Below, piece by piece: positions 2-6,010 of a stretch of 64,000 nt of DNA (its first letter is position 1; each line of letters opens with the position of its first letter). A program made the position numbers and the translations under genes. Source of the DNA: Dehalococcoidia bacterium (lineage in GTDB: Bacteria > Chloroflexota > Dehalococcoidia > UBA2979); the NCBI GenBank assembly GCA_965204835.1, contig OZ242017.1, positions 2,182,066 to 2,246,065 on the forward strand, in the 5' to 3' direction. The notes beneath the pieces were generated by a model. That model had not been told where the DNA came from. It did not search any database and worked only from the letters and a program-made list of their open reading frames with translations.

Positions 2-1291
2 CCCCTCGATGGCATCCGCATCATCGACTTCACCGTGGTGTGGGCCGGCCCGTACGGCACGATGCAACTCGCGGACTGGGGCGCCGAGGTGATCCGGGTG
101 GAGTCACTGCACCACTTCGCCCCGCAGACCCGCGGGCTGATCGCACACCCGCCGCCGGAGTTCGCGGTCAACAGCGCGAACCAGGGCGGCGCGTATCCCG
201 ACGACTTGCTCGGCGACCGTCCGTGGAACCGTGCCCCGAACTTCAACGACCACGGCCACAACAAGCGCTCGGTCACGATCCACCTCGGCACGCCCGAGGG
301 CCAGGCGGTGCTCGACCGGCTGATCGAGCAGTCCGACGGGCTCGTCGAGAACAACCTGCCGCCGAACATCGAGAAGCAGGGCATCACGTGGGAGCGCGTC
401 TCCGCGATCAACCCGCAGATGGTCATGCTGCGCGTGCCGGCGTTCGGCCTCGAGGGCCCGTATCGGGGCTACCGCACATGGGGCAACCACATGGAGGCGC
501 TGCTCGGCCACCCGGTGTTGCGCGCCTACCCCGACCTCAGCCTGGACTACGCGCCCTCCGGCGTACCGTCCGACGCAGCCTCGGGCGTCGGCGGTGCGCT
601 CGCCTTCCTGATGGGGCTGCGCCAGCGCAAGAAGACAGGCGAAGGGCTCCTCATCGAGGCGGCGACCGCCGAGAACTTCGTGCCGTTCATCGGCGACTTC
701 GTCATGGACTACACCATGAATGGACGCGTCCATGAGCAACTCGGCAACACCCACCCCACGATGGCGCCCCACAACGTCTACCCGTGCTGGGGAACCGACC
801 GCTGGATCGCCATCGCCGTGCGCTCCGAGGAGGAGTGGACACGCCTGTGCGGCGTGATGCACCAGCTCGAACTCGGCGACGACCCGCGCTTCGCCACGAT
901 GGAGTCGCGGCACGAGCACCGCGACGCCCTCGACGCGCGGATCGCGGAGTGGACGGTGACCAAGGACGCCTACTGGGTGATGGAGCGCCTGCAGACCGAG
1001 GGCATCCCCGCGGGGGTTGCGATGCATGAGCGCGACGTCCTCGAGAACCGCCAGCACGAGGCGCGCGGCTTCTGGCGCACCATCAGCCACCCCGAGGCCG
1101 GCACGCAGCGGCACGCGGGACCGCTGTGGGGCACCACCGGCTCCAACCCCCGGCCCGCGCGGCACGCGCCGCGGCTGGGCGAGGACAACGAGTACGTCTA
1201 CAAGGAGGTCATGGGCTACTCGGACGCCGAGTACGCGGCCTTCGAGGAGGCGGGCCACATCGGCATGGACTACGACCCCTCGGTGCCGTAG
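2..1291 (+). CDS. CoA-transferase family III (CaiB/BaiF-like), 5'-truncated at window edge
   Basis: Frame-2 translation from nt 2 gives the family III CoA-transferase N-terminal motif (PLDGIRIIDFTVVWAGPYGTMQLADWGAEVIRVE) and a full-length C-terminus ending at TAG 1289-1291. No start codon in window. Confidence 0.85.
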   Translation, partial: PLDGIRIIDFTVVWAGPYGTMQLADWGAEVIRVESLHHFAPQTRGLIAHPPPEFAVNSANQGGAYPDDLLGDRPWNRAPNFNDHGHNKRSVTIHLGTPEGQAVLDRLIEQSDGLVENNLPPNIEKQGITWERVSAINPQMVMLRVPAFGLEGPYRGYRTWGNHMEALLGHPVLRAYPDLSLDYAPSGVPSDAASGVGGALAFLMGLRQRKKTGEGLLIEAATAENFVPFIGDFVMDYTMNGRVHEQLGNTHPTMAPHNVYPCWGTDRWIAIAVRSEEEWTRLCGVMHQLELGDDPRFATMESRHEHRDALDARIAEWTVTKDAYWVMERLQTEGIPAGVAMHERDVLENRQHEARGFWRTISHPEAGTQRHAGPLWGTTGSNPRPARHAPRLGEDNEYVYKEVMGYSDAEYAAFEEAGHIGMDYDPSVP

Positions 1292-1657
1292 TGGGCGTAC
1301 GACGGTTCGTGACCGATCTCTTCGTGGAGCCTGCCCTGAACTGGCGGGACTATGACGCGCCGTTCAGGACGAAGCTGCGGCTTGCCCTCCGCAATAACTG
1401 GATCAAGATCCGCACGCTCTCGACGTGCTGCGGGAACAACGGCGAGCCAGGTTGCTGACGGGTCGACGGCGGGCCCGGTGCGGGCTCCCATCACCATCAT
1501 CATCACGACGAGTAGGAGTAATCGGGCGTAATTCCATTCATGATGAGCATCCGGCGATACCGGCGCTCAAGTTGCTTCATAAACCGGCTGGATTAACCGC
1601 CCGTCCATTGCGTAAGCTTCAGTGCGCGTCAGACACGATGATTCGAAGGAGTACGCA

Positions 1658-1912
1658 GTGCCGAAGTTCACACCCATGGAGGCGTCCGAAGTCCTGATCG
1701 GCCGCGCGCGAGCCGCCGCCGAGGAGCGCGCCGAGTACGTCGAGGCAGTACGCGCCTCCGACGCGGGCAAGATCGAGCTCGGACGGGGCGAGAACCCCAC
1801 GCGGGTGAAGCGGCTCCTGTCCGAAGCGGCCCGCGAAGCCGGCACCAAGGTCCGCTCCTCCTGGGAGGACAAGAACAAGCGCACCCTGCTCTGGAAGCGG
1901 GTGGGCCGCTAG
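1658..1912 (+). CDS. small basic hypothetical protein (~84 aa, Lys/Arg-rich C-terminus)
   Basis: ORF 1622-1912. GTG at 1658 is preceded by an AGGAG-like RBS (gaaggagtacgcaGTG). It follows a lower-GC intergenic region and is followed by a hairpin terminator. Confidence 0.4.
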   Translation: MPKFTPMEASEVLIGRARAAAEERAEYVEAVRASDAGKIELGRGENPTRVKRLLSEAAREAGTKVRSSWEDKNKRTLLWKRVGR

Positions 1913-1920
1913 CGCCGTCC

Positions 1921-1932
1921 GGGGGGGGGGGG
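1921..1932. repeat. G12 homopolymer tract
   Basis: Twelve consecutive G at 1921-1932, immediately 3' of the 1658-1912 ORF stop. Confidence 0.9.
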
Positions 1933-2492: not shown

Positions 2493-3050
2493 GTGAGCGA
2501 ACGCGGCATGATCCTGTGGTTTACGGGGCTCTCCGGGTCCGGTAAATCCACCCTCGCCGAATACCTCGCCCCCGAGCTGCGGGCGCGCGGGCGCAACGTC
2601 GAGGTCCTCGACGGCGACGAGGTCCGCACGAACCTCTCCAAGGGGCTCGGGTTCTCCAAGGAGGACCGCGACACCAACATCCGGCGCATCGGCTACGTCG
2701 CGCGGCTGCTCTCGCGCAACGGGGTGGCCGTGATCACCGCCGCCATCTCGCCCTACGCCGAGATCCGCGACGAGGTGCGCGCCAGCATCGCCGGCGAGCC
2801 CGCCGAGTTCGTCGAGATCCACGTCGACTGCTCCATCGAGGAGCTCACCCGCCGCGACGTGAAGGGGCTGTACGAGAAGGCCCTGCGCGGCGAGATCCAG
2901 AACTTCACCGGCATCTCCGACCCGTACGAGGCGCCCGAGCAGCCCGAGGTGCGCGTCAACTCCGAGACGCAGGACGAGCAGGAGTCGCTCGGCGACATCC
3001 TCGGCTACCTGGAGTCGGCGGACCTGATCCCGGCGGGAGCCGTGTCATGA
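2493..3050 (+). CDS. cysC: adenylylsulfate (APS) kinase
   Basis: Walker A motif GLSGSGKST and APS-kinase-wide similarity ([15 protein letters not shown]...). GTG 2493 after a GGGGGGA RBS. 4-nt ATGA overlap with the next gene. Confidence 0.95.
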
Positions 3051-4222
3051 GCCCCGACACATCCCAGCTCGTCCCGCCGCACGGTGGCGAGCTCCGTGAG
3101 TTGCTCGCCACCGGCGAGGAGGCCGCGGCCCTCGCGCAGGCCGCGAGCGAGTTGCCCGTGCTGCGCCTCGGCCCGCGCCAGGTCACCGACCTCGAACTGC
3201 TCTCCGTCGGGGCGCTGAGCCCCCTCCGCGGCTTCATGGACGAGGCCGACTACCGGGCGGTCGTCGAGGGCATGTGCCTGGCCGACGGCGCCGTGTGGAG
3301 CGTGCCCATCACGCTCCCGGTCACGTCCGCGCAGGCCGCGGAGCTTGCCAACCGCCAGATCGCGCTCGCCGCGGAGGACGGCACGCTGCTCGCCGTGATG
3401 GACGCCGGCGACGCCTACGCCTACGACCGCGCGCGCGAGGCCGAGAAGGTCTACCGCACCGCCGACCCGGCACACCCGGGCGTCGAGGCGGTCAACGACC
3501 AGGCCGACATGCTCCTCGGCGGGCCGGTCCGCGCCTTCGCGCTGCCGCCGGACCCGGAGTTCCCGGAGCACCGGCTCACGCCGGCGCAGACCCGTGCCGC
3601 GTTCGCCGAGCGCGGCTGGCGGACCGTGGTCGGCTTCCAGACGCGCAACCCCGTACACCGCGCGCACGAGTACCTCACCAAGGTCGCGCTCGAGGTCGTC
3701 GACGGCCTGCTCCTCCACCCGCTGGTGGGAGAGACGAAGGAAGGCGACATCCCGGCCGACGTGCGGATGCAGTGCTACCAGGTGCTGCTCGACGGCTACT
3801 ACGCGCAGGACCGCGTCCTGCTCTCCGTGCTCCCCGCGTCGATGCGCTACGCGGGGCCGCGCGAGGCGATCTTCCACGCGATCATGCGCCAGAACTACGG
3901 CTGCTCGCACTTCATCGTCGGGCGCGACCACGCCGGCGTCGGCGACTACTACGGCACGTACGACGCGCAGGAGATCTTCGACGAGCTCGAGCCGGGCGCG
4001 CTGGCGATCCAGCCGCTCAAGTTCGAGCACAGCTTCTACTGCGTCAGCTGCGAGGCGATGGCAAGCTCGCACACGTGCCCGCACGGCAACGACGACCACG
4101 TCTTCCTGTCCGGCACGCGCGTGCGCCAGATGCTCGAGGCCGGCGAGGCGCCGCCGCCCGAGTTCACGCGGCCCGAGGTCGCCGAGGTGCTCGTCGAGGC
4201 GTACAGCAGCGGCGCGGCGTAA
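3047..4222 (+). CDS. sat: sulfate adenylyltransferase (ATP sulfurylase, homo-oligomeric type)
   Basis: [11 protein letters not shown] and GRDHAGVG motifs typical of ATP sulfurylase. ATG 3047 overlaps the cysC stop. Confidence 0.95.
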
Positions 4223-4231
4223 CCACCGCGC
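4209..4231. terminator. candidate bidirectional terminator hairpin between convergent sat and the permease gene
   Basis: GGCGCGG-cgtaacca-CCGCGCC perfect 7-bp stem spanning the sat stop. Confidence 0.35.
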
Positions 4232-4243
4232 CCTCGGCGGCAG

Positions 4244-6010
4244 CTACCAGAACACCGGCGTCCCGAGGACGACGACGGCGATCACCGTGAGCGAGAGCGG
4301 CGCGCCGAGCCGCGCGTAGTCGGAGAACCGGTAGCCGCCCGGCCCGTAGACCATGATGTTGGTCTGGTAGCCGATCGGCGTCAGGAACGACGCCGAGGCG
4401 GTCACGGCGATCGCGATCGCCGTGCTCCGGGTATCGAGGCCGGCCGATTCCGCGGCGACCACCGCCACCGGGAACATCAGCACGGCCGCGGCGCTGTTCG
4501 TCACCAGCTCCGTCAGCACGATCGTCGCCAGCACCAGCCCGAGCAGCACCCCGCGCGGCCCGAGCGCCTCGAACACATCGACGATGCGCATCGCGAACTG
4601 GCCGGCGAGCCCGGACTCCTGGATGGCCGCCGCCAGCCCGAACGCCGCGGCGATCGTCACGACCACGTCGAGGTCGATGGCGTTCCGCGCCTGCACCGGG
4701 TTGAGCACGCGCAGCCCCACCACGGCGAGCGCGGCCAGCAGCGCGGCCTCGAGGAGGGTGAGCGCGCCCGTCGCCGCCAGCACCACCATGGCGACCACGA
4801 GCGGCCCGACGAGCAGCGCCCGGCGCTGCACGCCGCGGCGCGAAAGCTCGCCGACGCCCGAGACCAGCAGGAAGTCGGGCTGCTCGCCCCACTGCATCTC
4901 GAAGTCGTCGTCGCTGATCAGCAACAGCGTGTCGCCGACGCGCATCTGCACGTCGCCGAGCTTCGCGTCGACGCGGCGGCCGGCGCGGTGGACGGCCAGC
5001 ACCGCCGCCTGGTAGCGGCCCCGGAACTCCGAGTCGCGGATGGTCTGCCCCACCACCGGCGAGGACTGCCCGAGCACCACCTCGTAGATCGCGCCGGTGT
5101 CGGCGCCGAGCTGCGCGAGCTGCCCATCCTCGCTCGACCGCAGCCCGCCGATGCCGTGCAGGTCGACGACGTCGTCGACGCGCCCAACGAAGCTGAGGCG
5201 GTCGTTGCCGCGCAGCACCGTGCGCGGCGAGACCGGCGCGATGGTGTATCCGGGGCGCTCGAGCTGCACGAGGTAGACGCCGCTGAGACTGCGCAGGCCG
5301 CCCGCCTCGACCTCGGAGCCGTCGAGGGGCCCCCCGGGCTCCACCACCATCTCGATGGTGTACTCGCGCGAGCCCGCGCCCAGGCTCCCGCGCGGCCCGG
5401 CGCGCGGCGGCAGCACGCGCGGGGCGAGCACGACGATCACCACCAGCCCGGCGACAGTCAGCGGCAGGCCCAGCTTCGCCACCTCGAAGAGCCCGATCGG
5501 CGTCATCCCCGCGCCCTCGACGAGCCCCGCGACGGCCACGTTCGTCGAGGTGCCGAGCACCGTCATGGTCCCGCCCAGCACTGCCGCGAACGATAGCGGC
5601 ATCAGGTAGCGCGACGGCGGCGTGCCCTGGCGGTCGCTCCACTCCTGCACGGCGGGCGTGAGGATCGCCACGATCGAGGTGTTGCTGAGGAACGCCGACG
5701 CCACCGACGTCGGCGCCAGCAGGCGCACGCCCGCCAGCACGAAGCTGCGTCCGCCGCCGAGCATCGTCGACAGCGCGGGCACCAGCGCGCCCGTCTCATG
5801 CACGGCGCGCGCGACGACGAGCAGGGCGCCGACGGTGAAGGGCGCGGGGTTGGCGAACCCGGAGAGCGCCTGCTCGGGCTCGGTGACGCCCGCGGCCATG
5901 AGCAGGACCGCCGCGCCGAGCAGCGCGACCGAGGGCGGCGCGAACCCGCGCAGCATCACCACGACCATCGCCGCGGTGACCGCGAGCGTGAGCCACGCGT
6001 CAACGCTCAC
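4244..6010 (-). CDS. SLC13/DASS-family anion permease with two central TrkA-C domains (putative sulfate/divalent anion transporter)
   Basis: 588-aa polytopic membrane protein with duplicated transporter halves flanking two TrkA-C-like soluble domains. Convergent with the sulfate activation genes. Confidence 0.8.
   Translation of the reverse strand: MSVDAWLTLAVTAAMVVVMLRGFAPPSVALLGAAVLLMAAGVTEPEQALSGFANPAPFTVGALLVVARAVHETGALVPALSTMLGGGRSFVLAGVRLLAPTSVASAFLSNTSIVAILTPAVQEWSDRQGTPPSRYLMPLSFAAVLGGTMTVLGTSTNVAVAGLVEGAGMTPIGLFEVAKLGLPLTVAGLVVIVVLAPRVLPPRAGPRGSLGAGSREYTIEMVVEPGGPLDGSEVEAGGLRSLSGVYLVQLERPGYTIAPVSPRTVLRGNDRLSFVGRVDDVVDLHGIGGLRSSEDGQLAQLGADTGAIYEVVLGQSSPVVGQTIRDSEFRGRYQAAVLAVHRAGRRVDAKLGDVQMRVGDTLLLISDDDFEMQWGEQPDFLLVSGVGELSRRGVQRRALLVGPLVVAMVVLAATGALTLLEAALLAALAVVGLRVLNPVQARNAIDLDVVVTIAAAFGLAAAIQESGLAGQFAMRIVDVFEALGPRGVLLGLVLATIVLTELVTNSAAAVLMFPVAVVAAESAGLDTRSTAIAIAVTASASFLTPIGYQTNIMVYGPGGYRFSDYARLGAPLSLTVIAVVVLGTPVFW

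What the first reader, a model, noticed from the sequence alone, without database searches (positions are those of the whole stretch)
1291..1515. Cryptic Cys-rich small ORF followed in-frame by TGA, a hairpin and a 6xHis codon run
A GTG at 1291 overlaps the CoA-transferase stop (TAGTG). It opens a 55-codon frame ending …IRTLSTCCGNNGEPGC-TGA (1456-1458), with lower local GC. In the same frame after the TGA comes RVDGGPGAGS-HHHHHH-DE-TAG (the His run is catcaccatcatcatcac, 1489-1506). The hairpin GCCCG-gtg-CGGGC, extendable to about 7 bp, starts about 9 nt after the TGA. This could be a small metal-binding peptide, or a RiPP-like or leader peptide. It could be a selenocysteine or read-through TGA whose His-rich tail is only made on recoding. 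It could be a decayed gene. The SalI and ApaI sites nearby also fit a vector-like fragment, but genuine genes flank both sides.
Basis: seen in the sequence. Interest (0 to 1): 0.5.

Follow-up and report, generated by a model that had tools for sequence, protein, structure and literature searches.

The report
Unannotated small selenoprotein with His tail
The "stop" codon at 1456-1458 is most likely read as selenocysteine, so this is a 74-codon gene for a small Cys/Sec- and His-rich, probably metal-binding protein, from a widespread family that gene callers cut short at the TGA and that is absent from the protein-family libraries and selenoprotein lists checked here.

Summary

- **The ORF is real.** ORF 1291-1458 belongs to a conserved family: 454 clusters at 50% identity, and relatives in at least 508 species' genomes, mostly Chloroflexota and Actinomycetota. 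Every called product ends at ...CCG[NH]xGEPGC.
- **TGA is fixed.** The next codon is TGA in 87 of 88 copies. The true stops of the same genes are only 45% TGA.
- **The hairpin looks like a bacterial SECIS.** It is present in essentially all 85 distinct copies. Its loop GU sits at +23/24 from the UGA in 49 copies, the window included, and one codon later in 21. It shows compensatory changes. 74/85 copies fit the published bacterial SECIS model, against 20% of control TGA stops.
- **The tail is translated.** His codons after the TGA lie in frame (233, against 52 and 39 in the other frames).
- **Cys homologues exist.** They carry TGC or TGT at that exact position and keep the His tail. Two of the three inspected have lost the hairpin.
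- **Relatives use selenocysteine.** Four relatives have selA or a known-type selenoprotein gene in the flanks.

No Pfam, NCBIfam, PDB or Rfam match was found. The family is absent from a 2026 list of 119 selenoprotein families. Function is inferred, not shown: metal(loid) binding, or possibly redox.

The parts
1291..1515 (+). Full recoded gene: 74 codons plus stop, GTG start to TAG. Product: (M)GVRRF...CCGNNGEPGC-U-RVDGGPGAGSHHHHHHDE.
   Evidence: Translation. Homologues share the start region (P0001, 93% identity). The syntenic Dehalococcoidia MAG L007 has the same TAGTG start overlap and the tail ...PGAGSHHHHDE.
1291..1455 (+). The part that gene callers annotate (55 aa). It has a variable N-terminus, a conserved core NWRDYDAPFRTKLRLALRNNWIKIRT predicted as two helices, and the invariant motif CCGxxGEPGC.
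   Evidence: Alignments A1 and A3: invariant N35, C46, C47, G48, G51, E52, P53, G54, C55. 454 representative clusters at E<=1e-3. AlphaFold2 gives helices 4-20 and 25-42, but mean pLDDT is only 60.8.
1456..1458 (+). In-frame UGA, proposed selenocysteine codon (residue 56). It forms a vicinal Cys-Sec pair.
   Evidence: TGA at this position in 87/88 copies and TAA in 1. The true stops of the same genes are TGA 38, TAG 34, TAA 12; binomial P about 3e-28. Homologues P0051, P0129, P0142, P0166 and P0168 have Cys here, encoded by TGC or TGT in the three whose DNA was read. The base after the UGA is never U: C 49, G 23, A 13.
1471..1487 (+). SECIS-like hairpin: 7-bp stem, loop GUG at 1478-1480. G1478 and U1479 lie at +23/+24 counted from the U of the UGA.
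   Evidence: -10.6 kcal/mol and a 19-nt spacing between UGA and loop, which meets all four constraints of the bacterial SECIS model (PMC13188914, Fig. 2). Covariation on 85 sequences: 82.9% of cells paired against 67.6% in shuffles (0/500), and 99 against 36 cells changed on both sides (0/500). The scan found no intrinsic-terminator-like site in 1000-2500.
1459..1512 (+). C-terminal extension made only if the UGA is decoded: linker RVDGGPGAGS, which overlaps the hairpin, then HHHHHHDE. The His6 run is 1489-1506.
   Evidence: After the UGA, His codons number 233 in frame 0, against 52 and 39 in the other two frames. 33 sequences have at least 3 His in frame 0, against 2 and 0. The His-rich module sits at the N-terminus instead in members whose tails lack His.
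1513..1515 (+). True stop codon (TAG) of the recoded gene.
   Evidence: The intergenic GC drop to 0.53 begins here.
35..1291 (+). Upstream CoA-transferase family III gene, context only. Its stop overlaps the small gene's start (TAGTG), which suggests co-transcription and coupled translation.
   Evidence: Pfam PF02515, E=1.7e-77. The same arrangement occurs in L007 and L071, with 88% and 79% amino-acid identity.

Best explanation
Window 1291-1515 is one gene for a small selenoprotein of about 73 residues.

**Proposed mechanism.**
1. The gene is probably co-transcribed with the upstream CoA-transferase. Translation starts at GTG 1291.
2. When the ribosome reaches UGA 1456-1458, the hairpin at 1471-1487, with its loop G and U at +23/+24, recruits SelB carrying Sec-tRNA(Sec). 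This is how the E. coli fdhF SECIS works.
3. Selenocysteine is inserted next to Cys55.
4. Translation continues through RVDGGPGAGS-HHHHHH-DE to TAG 1513.

**Product.** It has two short basic helices, then a cluster of three Cys and one Sec (CC-G-x-x-G-E-P-G-C-U), then a His6 tail.

**Function.** Most likely it binds, buffers or hands over a metal or metalloid ion. This would work like His/Cys-rich metal-handling proteins such as Hpn, CooJ and the HypB or SlyD tails. Redox use of the vicinal Cys-Sec pair is the alternative.

**Shown by comparison:** the conserved UGA, the SECIS-like hairpin, the translated tail and the Cys homologues.

**Inferred:** actual Sec insertion in this organism (about 0.85) and the metal-binding role (about 0.45).
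For: 1. **The ORF is a real, widespread family.** There were 37 hits and 454 clusters at 50% identity. At least 508 species' genomes carry a relative. Every called product ends at GEPGC.
2. **TGA is fixed.** It follows GEPGC in 87/88 copies, while the genuine downstream stops are TGA 38, TAG 34, TAA 12. P about 3e-28.
3. **The hairpin is conserved.** All 85 distinct copies have one. The loop GU sits at +23 in 49 copies and +26 in 21, one codon later.
4. **The hairpin covaries.** Pair 26-40 is AU 40, CG 21, GC 14. Pair 28-38 is CG 52, UA 20, UG 9. All 500 shuffles and all slid controls score lower.
5. **It fits the published bacterial SECIS model.** 74/85 copies pass, against 56/280 control TGA stops. 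Under stricter criteria the figures are 66/85 against 7/280.
6. **The tail is in frame.** His codons number 233, against 52 and 39. The His-rich module is N-terminal exactly in the members whose tails lack His.
7. **Cys homologues exist.** They have Cys at the UGA position plus a His tail. L088 and L089 (TGC) have lost the hairpin but keep the tail. L087 (TGT) still has it.
8. **Relatives use selenocysteine.**
   - selA lies next to the gene in L041 (TIGR00474, 286.5 bits, above its cut-off).
   - A ResA-like WAxxUGC gene with TGA at the U position lies in L084 (NF041054, 455 bits).
   - AhpC/TSA genes with W-TGA-A-Y/F-C lie directly upstream in L003 and L046.
   - Dehalococcoidia are among the most selenoprotein-rich bacteria (PMC13326102).
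9. **The window is from that lineage.** It is syntenic with a Dehalococcoidia MAG, L007, which has the same gene, hairpin and tail.
Against: - No selA, selB, selD or tRNA-Sec lies in the 64-kb window. The rest of the genome could not be searched, so Sec decoding in this organism is inferred from relatives.
- There is no protein-level evidence.
- The hairpin alone is not unusual for 70% GC DNA (z = 0.35).
- 11 of 85 copies fail the SECIS model. In a separate hairpin scan, 9 of 85 lacked a loop GU.
- Some members have only 2-10 codons after the UGA, so the tail is not essential to the family.
- Gene neighbourhoods vary: aconitase-type LeuCD upstream in about 22 loci, CoA-transferase in about 9. 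They give no functional anchor.
- The structure model is low confidence (pLDDT 60.8).
- No metal-related gene is linked to the family.
Confidence: 0.8

Rival explanations
1. The product is a redox protein, not a metal binder. The vicinal Cys55-Sec56 pair, with or without Cys46-Cys47, cycles between selenenylsulfide and the reduced form, like the C-terminal GCUG of mammalian thioredoxin reductase. It would serve as a small electron carrier or resolving partner, for example for the AhpC/TSA-type selenoprotein encoded next to it in some genomes. Decoding is the same as in the best explanation; only the function differs.
For: - In L003 and L046 the gene lies directly downstream of an AhpC/TSA gene with a U-x-x-C motif, 16 nt apart in L003.
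- Most known bacterial selenoproteins are redox proteins (PMC13188914).
- The Sec/Cys exchange at this position is typical of redox-active cysteines.
Against: - The peroxiredoxin neighbour occurs in only 2 of about 82 loci.
- His-rich modules recur at either end of the protein in about 40% of members. Redox chemistry does not explain them, whereas metal binding does.
- There is no thioredoxin-like fold and no family match.
Confidence: 0.3
2. UGA 1456 is read through without selenocysteine. The hairpin and the weak UGA-C/G/A context promote insertion of a standard amino acid (Trp, Cys or Arg by near-cognate tRNA). This gives a mix of the 55-residue and the extended product.
For: - Sec machinery was not demonstrated for this genome.
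- U never follows the UGA, which fits leaky termination in general.
- One homologue has Arg at the position (P0163).
Against: - The hairpin geometry is that of a SelB-binding SECIS: a GU in a small apical loop at a fixed +23/24, or one codon later.
- Homologues replace the codon with Cys specifically, in 5 cases.
- selA or known-type selenoprotein genes with TGA at the active site sit beside the gene in four relatives.
- The host classes are documented Sec users.
Confidence: 0.08
3. TGA is an ordinary stop and the protein is 55 residues. The hairpin would be a 3' mRNA stabiliser or attenuator. The in-frame His codons would be untranslated, or a relic.
For: - All automatic annotations stop at the TGA.
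- TGA is the commonest stop in high-GC genomes.
- Some members have only 2-10 codons after it.
Against: - TGA in 87/88 copies against 45% at the real stops.
- The strong frame bias of His codons after the TGA.
- Cys-codon homologues run straight into the same kind of tail.
- The hairpin is lost when the codon is TGC.
- The His module swaps between the N- and C-terminus.
- No terminator-like site was found in the scanned region.
Confidence: 0.04
4. The segment is a laboratory artefact: a His6-tagged construct or vector fragment with SalI and ApaI sites, assembled into the contig.
For: GS-HHHHHH resembles an engineered tag, and two 6-cutter sites lie nearby.
Against: - No match in 72,556 plasmid records at blastn sensitivity.
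- The same gene, hairpin and PGAGSHHHH(HH)DE tail occur in an independent MAG with conserved flanking genes (L007).
- Variable natural His-rich tails occur in dozens of metagenomic homologues.
Confidence: 0.01

Closest known systems
Bacterial Sec-UGA/SECIS recoding, as in E. coli fdhF
   Same: - An in-frame UGA followed by a short stem-loop whose apical loop carries G23 and U24, counted from the U of the UGA. The fdhF numbering is from my own knowledge of the fdhF/SelB literature.
- In the window, G1478 and U1479 are at exactly +23/+24.
- The window hairpin meets the published consensus model: loop 3-9 nt, stem at least 4 bp, G in the first two loop positions, spacing 16-37 nt, and -7.5 kcal/mol or lower (PMC13188914).
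   Different: - There is no bulged U.
- The loop is only 3-5 nt.
- The hairpin lies near the end of the gene. In some members it sits partly or wholly beyond the true stop, for example L001 and L065.
- The protein is unrelated to formate dehydrogenase.
C-terminal 'CU' selenoproteins linked to metal(loid) chemistry: KCU-star/DUF466 (NF033934), SaoC Cys-Cys-COOH (NF040734), MbdU (NF045648)
   Same: - They are small or terminal modules with a vicinal Cys-Sec pair close to the C-terminus.
- Their proposed role is metal or metalloid binding (PMC13188914).
   Different: - There is no sequence relationship: no NCBIfam model matched at E<=1.
- Here the Sec is followed by a linker that carries the SECIS, and often by a His-rich tail.
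- The taxa differ (Chloroflexota and Actinomycetota), and there is no sao- or mer-type operon.
His/Cys-rich metal-handling proteins: H. pylori Hpn (EEGCC repeats plus His runs), CooJ, and the HypB, UreE and SlyD tails. Recalled from memory; analogy only.
   Same: His runs are combined with vicinal Cys pairs after Glu/Gly (GEPGC-U/C here). The proteins are small, and the His-rich segments are disordered and can sit at either terminus.
   Different: - No homology was tested or expected.
- No nickel-enzyme or hydrogenase genes are linked.
- This family has a conserved basic two-helix core that those proteins lack.
- Metal binding is not demonstrated.
C-terminal GCUG redox centre of mammalian thioredoxin reductase
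   Same: A vicinal Cys-Sec pair follows a Gly near a flexible C-terminus.
   Different: That centre is part of a large flavoenzyme. Here the pair belongs to a stand-alone protein of about 73 residues with two additional cysteines and a His tail.

Membership tests
Bacterial selenoprotein gene (Sec-UGA decoded through a SECIS) | An in-frame UGA conserved among homologues | tested here: met
   87/88 copies have TGA directly after GEPGC. The true stops are TGA 38, TAG 34, TAA 12.
Bacterial selenoprotein gene (Sec-UGA decoded through a SECIS) | A stem-loop after the UGA that fits the bSECIS model: loop 3-9 nt, stem 4-16 bp, G in the first two loop positions, 16-37 nt spacing, -7.5 kcal/mol or lower | tested here: met
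   Window: loop GUG, 7 bp, spacing 19 nt, -10.6 kcal/mol. In the family 74/85 pass, against 20% of control TGA stops. Covariation supports the stem.
Bacterial selenoprotein gene (Sec-UGA decoded through a SECIS) | Coding signal continues in frame after the UGA | tested here: met
   His codons number 233 in frame 0, against 52 and 39. The His module is either N-terminal or post-UGA, never both.
Bacterial selenoprotein gene (Sec-UGA decoded through a SECIS) | Homologues with Cys aligned to the UGA | tested here: met
   P0051, P0129, P0142, P0166 and P0168 read GEPGC-C plus a tail. The codons are TGC or TGT in the three whose DNA was read, L087-L089.
Bacterial selenoprotein gene (Sec-UGA decoded through a SECIS) | selA, selB, selC and selD present in the same genome | not testable with these tools

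Indirect evidence from relatives:
- selA is adjacent in L041.
- Known-type selenoprotein genes with an active-site TGA lie in L003, L046 and L084.
- The same bacterial classes encode SelA.
Bacterial selenoprotein gene (Sec-UGA decoded through a SECIS) | Selenium demonstrated in the protein | not testable with these tools
   This needs 75Se labelling or mass spectrometry.
Known CU-type selenoprotein families (KCU-star NF033934, SaoC NF040734, MbdU NF045648, SaoL, HgcA) | A match to the family's curated HMM | tested here: not met
   No NCBIfam or Pfam family matched the 55-aa or the 74-aa (U written as C) product at E<=1. None matched the Cys homologues at E<=0.1.
RiPP precursor or leader peptide | Recurrent adjacent modifying enzymes (radical SAM, cyclodehydratase, lanthipeptide synthetase and so on) and a variable core peptide | tested here: not met
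   The recurrent neighbours are aconitase-type LeuCD, Iso_dh, CoA-transferase, Leu/Phe-tRNA protein transferase and prenyltransferase. The Cys-rich C-terminal motif is invariant, not variable.
Cloning-vector or His-tag construct | Sequence identity to vector or plasmid backbones | tested here: not met
   No blastn match in the plasmid collection. A natural homologue has the same tail in syntenic context.
Intrinsic terminator | A GC-rich hairpin followed by a U-run | tested here: not met
   No terminator-like site in 1000-2500. The hairpin is followed by CCAUCACCAU.

The most novel reading that the evidence does not exclude
The UGA acts as a selenium-dependent switch and the gene makes two products.

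- Without usable selenium, translation stops at the UGA and gives a 55-residue Cys-only protein.
- With selenium, it gives the full protein, which gains both a selenolate ligand and the His-rich metal-binding tail.

Metal handling would then be coupled to selenium status by recoding efficiency itself. A side issue supports plasticity here: one Pelotomaculum MAG (L011) has TAA at this position with the hairpin and His tail intact. If that is not an assembly error or a truncated allele, it could be a case of Sec decoding at UAA.
Probability: 0.12. Interest if true: 0.8.

Novelty: new member of a known kind. Interest (0 to 1): 0.62.

Why it matters
**Annotation.** If this is right, hundreds of genomes carry a selenoprotein that every annotation inspected here truncates to a 50-57 aa "hypothetical protein". 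These are mainly uncultured Chloroflexota (Dehalococcoidia, Anaerolineae) and Actinomycetota (Acidimicrobiia, Thermoleophilia). The family is missing from Pfam, NCBIfam and a 2026 compendium of 119 prokaryotic selenoprotein families, so selenoproteome counts for these lineages are underestimates.

**A natural experiment on SECIS evolution.** The same protein occurs in four forms:
- with Sec plus the hairpin;
- with Cys and a relic hairpin;
- with Cys and no hairpin;
- with the His-rich module moved to the other end of the protein.

This lets RNA-level constraints be separated from protein-level ones.

**Function.** A vicinal Cys-Sec pair beside two more cysteines and a His run is a promising candidate for selenium-assisted metal or metalloid binding. 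That role is widely proposed for selenoproteins but rarely tested.

**Tractability.** The window's copy has a natural His6 tail and an fdhF-like GU spacing, which should make it experimentally tractable.

Tried and rejected
- **Family and structure libraries.** Pfam and NCBIfam scans of the 55-aa and 74-aa products and of the Cys homologues found nothing. A profile search of PDB sequences found nothing at E<=10. An Rfam scan of 1200-1700 gave only a chance miRNA hit at E=9.3.
- **Structure prediction.** AlphaFold2 with the family alignment gave mean pLDDT 60.8. I ran no fold search, because matches to a low-confidence model would be meaningless.
- **tRNA-Sec.** ARAGORN found none in the window or in the 81 loci scanned.
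- **sel genes.** tblastn with E. coli SelA, SelB and SelD against the window and all loci found only selA in L041.
- **Linking SelA to the long contigs.** I tried to match SelA hits to the contigs that carry the family, using the contig-length column. No length matched.
- **BSepDB supplements.** I looked for the MAG isolate names there, but the files are not held.
- **Literature.** A full-text search for GEPGCU, EPGCU, GEPGC and 'PGCU motif' found none of these strings; all 488 returned papers matched only the fifth term, CCGN.
- **Gene neighbourhood.** Clustering found no single conserved operon. LeuCD synteny in about 22 loci looks lineage-specific rather than functional.
- **Terminator and promoter scans.** Both were negative.
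- **Vector hypothesis.** No plasmid match.
Full report
**1. The observation**

The sequence is as described.
- GTG 1291 overlaps the TAG that ends a CoA-transferase family III gene at 35-1291 (PF02515).
- The frame runs VGVRRF...STCCGNNGEPGC to TGA 1456-1458.
- It continues in frame as RVDGGPGAGS-HHHHHH-DE to TAG 1513-1515.
- The hairpin is GGGCCCG / GUG / CGGGCUC at 1471-1487. Its stem starts 12 nt after the TGA.
- Local GC is lower than in the neighbouring genes.

Taken alone, the hairpin is unremarkable for 70% GC DNA (z = 0.35). Single-sequence evidence therefore cannot decide anything.

**2. The ORF is a real, conserved gene**

A search of 5.8 billion proteins returned 37 relatives of 50-98 aa. 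All of them end exactly at ...CCG[NH]xGEPGC. A profile search of 1.84 billion cluster representatives found 454 clusters at E<=1e-3.

Nearly all are MAGs of two phyla:
- Chloroflexota: Dehalococcoidia, Anaerolineae, Tepidiformales, Thermoflexus.
- Actinomycetota: Acidimicrobiia, Thermoleophilia, Nitriliruptorales.

A few come from Firmicutes, Thermodesulfobacteriota and Hyphomicrobiales.

The window itself is syntenic with a Dehalococcoidia MAG, L007. Amino-acid identities are 88% for the CoA-transferase, 89% for the downstream 84-aa ORF, 91% for CysC and 93% for ATP sulfurylase. L007 has the same TAGTG start overlap and the tail PGAGSHHHHDE.

**3. The TGA is not an ordinary stop**

In 88 copies found in the fetched DNA, the codon after GEPGC is TGA 87 times and TAA once. 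The in-frame extension then ends at a second stop, which is TGA 38, TAG 34 and TAA 12 times. So genuine stops in these same genes are only 45% TGA. The probability of the observed fixation is about 3e-28.

The base after the UGA is C, G or A but never U.

**4. The hairpin behaves as a SECIS**

All 85 distinct downstream sequences have a 4-9 bp hairpin. Its small apical loop contains GU at +23/24 from the U of the UGA in 49 copies, and at +26/27, one codon later, in 21. From my own knowledge of the fdhF/SelB literature, +23/24 is the position of the SelB-contacting G23 and U24 in the E. coli fdhF element.

On a MAFFT alignment (A2):
- 82.9% of cells in the 8-bp helix pair, against 67.6% in shuffles (0/500).
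- 99 cells changed on both sides, against 36 (0/500).
- The covariation score is 0.403 against 0.160.
- All slid controls score lower. RNAalifold finds the same stem.

The stem changes (GAGCCC/GGGCUC, GCGUCC/GGACGC, GAGUCCC/GGGACUC, CCCUCCG/CGGAGGG) alter the encoded amino acids (EPGPGS, ESRRDS, ASGSDA and so on). The constraint is therefore on the RNA, not on the peptide.

I applied the published bacterial SECIS constraints (PMC13188914, Fig. 2). 74/85 family members pass, against 56/280 TGA stops of well-supported ORFs in the same loci. With stricter criteria (stem at least 5 bp and a GU in the loop) the figures are 66/85 against 7/280. The window's element has a 7-bp stem, loop GUG, 19-nt spacing and -10.6 kcal/mol. 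The scan found no intrinsic-terminator-like site in 1000-2500.

**5. The tail is translated**

Within 35 codons after the UGA, His codons number 233 in frame 0, against 52 and 39 in the other frames. 33 sequences have at least 3 His in frame, against 2 and 0. Extensions are 2-35 codons long, with a median of 16.

Members with a His-rich N-terminus have tails without His. These are the Thermoleophilia-type members L054, L055, L057 and L061. Members with His-rich tails lack N-terminal His. So the His-rich module is a movable part of the protein.

**6. Cys homologues exist**

Five cluster representatives read GEPGC-C followed by a His-rich tail: P0051, P0129, P0142, P0166 and P0168. Two others show W at the position, apparently TGA translated under another genetic code. 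One has R.

At the DNA level:
- L087 has TGT and still carries the hairpin, with GU at +23/24.
- L088 and L089 have TGC and have lost the hairpin, but keep the tail.

So the hairpin goes with the UGA, and the tail goes with the protein.

**7. Sec use in carriers**

The window has no tRNA genes and no SelA, SelB or SelD homologue.

Within only +/-6 kb of the gene in relatives, I found:
- selA adjacent in L041 (TIGR00474, 286.5 bits against a cut-off of 267.9).
- A ResA-like WAxxUGC gene with TGA at the U position in L084 (NF041054, 455 bits against a cut-off of 300).
- AhpC/TSA genes with W-TGA-A-Y/F-C directly upstream in L003 and L046.

SelA is annotated in MAGs of the same classes. Dehalococcoidia MAGs are among the most selenoprotein-rich bacteria in BSepDB (PMC13326102).

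**8. What it is, and how it compares with what is known**

By the criteria the field uses, this is a selenoprotein gene. Those criteria are a conserved UGA, a bSECIS, conserved coding sequence downstream, Sec/Cys pairs among homologues, and occurrence in Sec-using lineages.

It matches no Pfam, NCBIfam, PDB or Rfam entry. It is not among the 119 families tabulated in 2026. No paper in the searched library contains any of the motif strings searched except the unrelated CCGN. Known "CU" families (KCU-star, SaoC, MbdU, SaoL, HgcA) share only the vicinal Cys-Sec idea.

I therefore call it a new family of a known kind.

**9. Function (inferred)**

The predicted product has two basic helices (low-confidence model), an invariant CC-G-x-x-G-E-P-G-C-U cluster, and in about 40% of members a His/Asp/Glu-rich segment. 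This composition points to binding of a metal or metalloid. It is analogous to His/Cys-rich metal-handling proteins such as Hpn, CooJ and the HypB or SlyD tails; that comparison is recalled from memory and was not tested. A redox role for the Cys-Sec pair is the main alternative, suggested by the peroxiredoxin-type neighbour in two loci.

Gene neighbourhoods are otherwise heterogeneous and give no firm anchor:
- aconitase-type LeuCD upstream in about 22 loci;
- CoA-transferase upstream in about 9 loci, including the window;
- Leu/Phe-tRNA protein transferase downstream in about 10 loci.

**10. Rejected readings**

- *Vector or His-tag artefact.* No plasmid match, and natural homologues exist.
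- *RiPP precursor.* No modifying enzymes recur nearby, and the Cys motif is invariant.
- *Decayed gene.* The family is strongly conserved.
- *Plain stop with a stabilising hairpin.* This is contradicted by sections 3-6.

**11. Verdict**

The finding is a widespread selenoprotein family that annotation pipelines truncate and that appears in none of the libraries or lists searched here.

Noticed in passing
L011 6166-6168 (Pelotomaculum sp. UBA4789 MAG, DHGV01000012.1): This is the only copy with TAA instead of TGA after GEPGC. It still has the hairpin with GU at +23/24 and an in-frame His-rich tail (AAEPGSRGGHNHSHSPDHKH). A terminator-like hairpin follows only after the second stop. It could be an assembly error, a truncated allele, or Sec decoding at UAA.
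   Followed up: partly
L003 5056-5985 and L046 about 3659-4594: An AhpC/TSA-family gene with an in-frame TGA in a W-U-A-Y/F-C motif lies directly upstream of the small gene, 16 nt apart in L003. The NCBI annotation of L003 leaves this stretch uncalled. A hairpin CAGCUC-GUG-GAGCUG follows the TGA.
   Followed up: partly
L084 about 1518-2579 (TGA at 1869): A ResA-like WAxxUGC motif gene (NF041054, 455 bits) with TGA at the U position lies about 1.9 kb upstream of the small gene in an Actinomycetota MAG.
   Followed up: yes
L041 3-674 (minus strand): selA (TIGR00474 equivalog) is divergently adjacent to the small gene (811-927) in a Nitriliruptorales MAG.
   Followed up: yes
L027 6000/6330, L030 6091/6404, L042 6106/6426: These loci carry tandem duplicates of the small gene about 320 nt apart. 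Each copy has its own TGA, hairpin and His-rich tail. The other recurrent gene here is a fused double CoA-transferase family III protein (816 aa) on the opposite strand, about 1.7 kb upstream.
   Followed up: partly
P0053, P0122: These database proteins have W at the Sec position. In P0053 a second W appears where the true stop should be. The gene was apparently called under a TGA=Trp code, which accidentally reveals the extension.
   Followed up: no
window 1921-1932: A run of 12 G lies in the intergenic region just after the 84-aa ORF (1658-1912). It could be a homopolymer assembly artefact or a slippage-prone tract.
   Followed up: no
window 1658-1912 (+): This 84-aa ORF (MPKFTPMEASEVLIGRARAAAEERAEY...) has no Pfam or NCBIfam match but is 89% identical in the syntenic MAG L007. 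It looks like a conserved gene of unknown function.
   Followed up: partly
window 2493-4222 (+): APS kinase (CysC) and ATP sulfurylase genes lie downstream, and both are conserved in L007 (91% and 93%). The names come from reading the translated sequences; they were not run through a family search. ATP sulfurylase also activates selenate, but a link to the selenoprotein gene is pure speculation.
   Followed up: no
L054, L055, L057, L061, L062, L066 (Thermoleophilia and other Actinomycetes MAGs): In these members the His-rich segment is N-terminal. Most of their hairpin loops read GGC or GGG and lack the usual GU. This may reflect a lineage-specific SelB/SECIS variant.
   Followed up: partly
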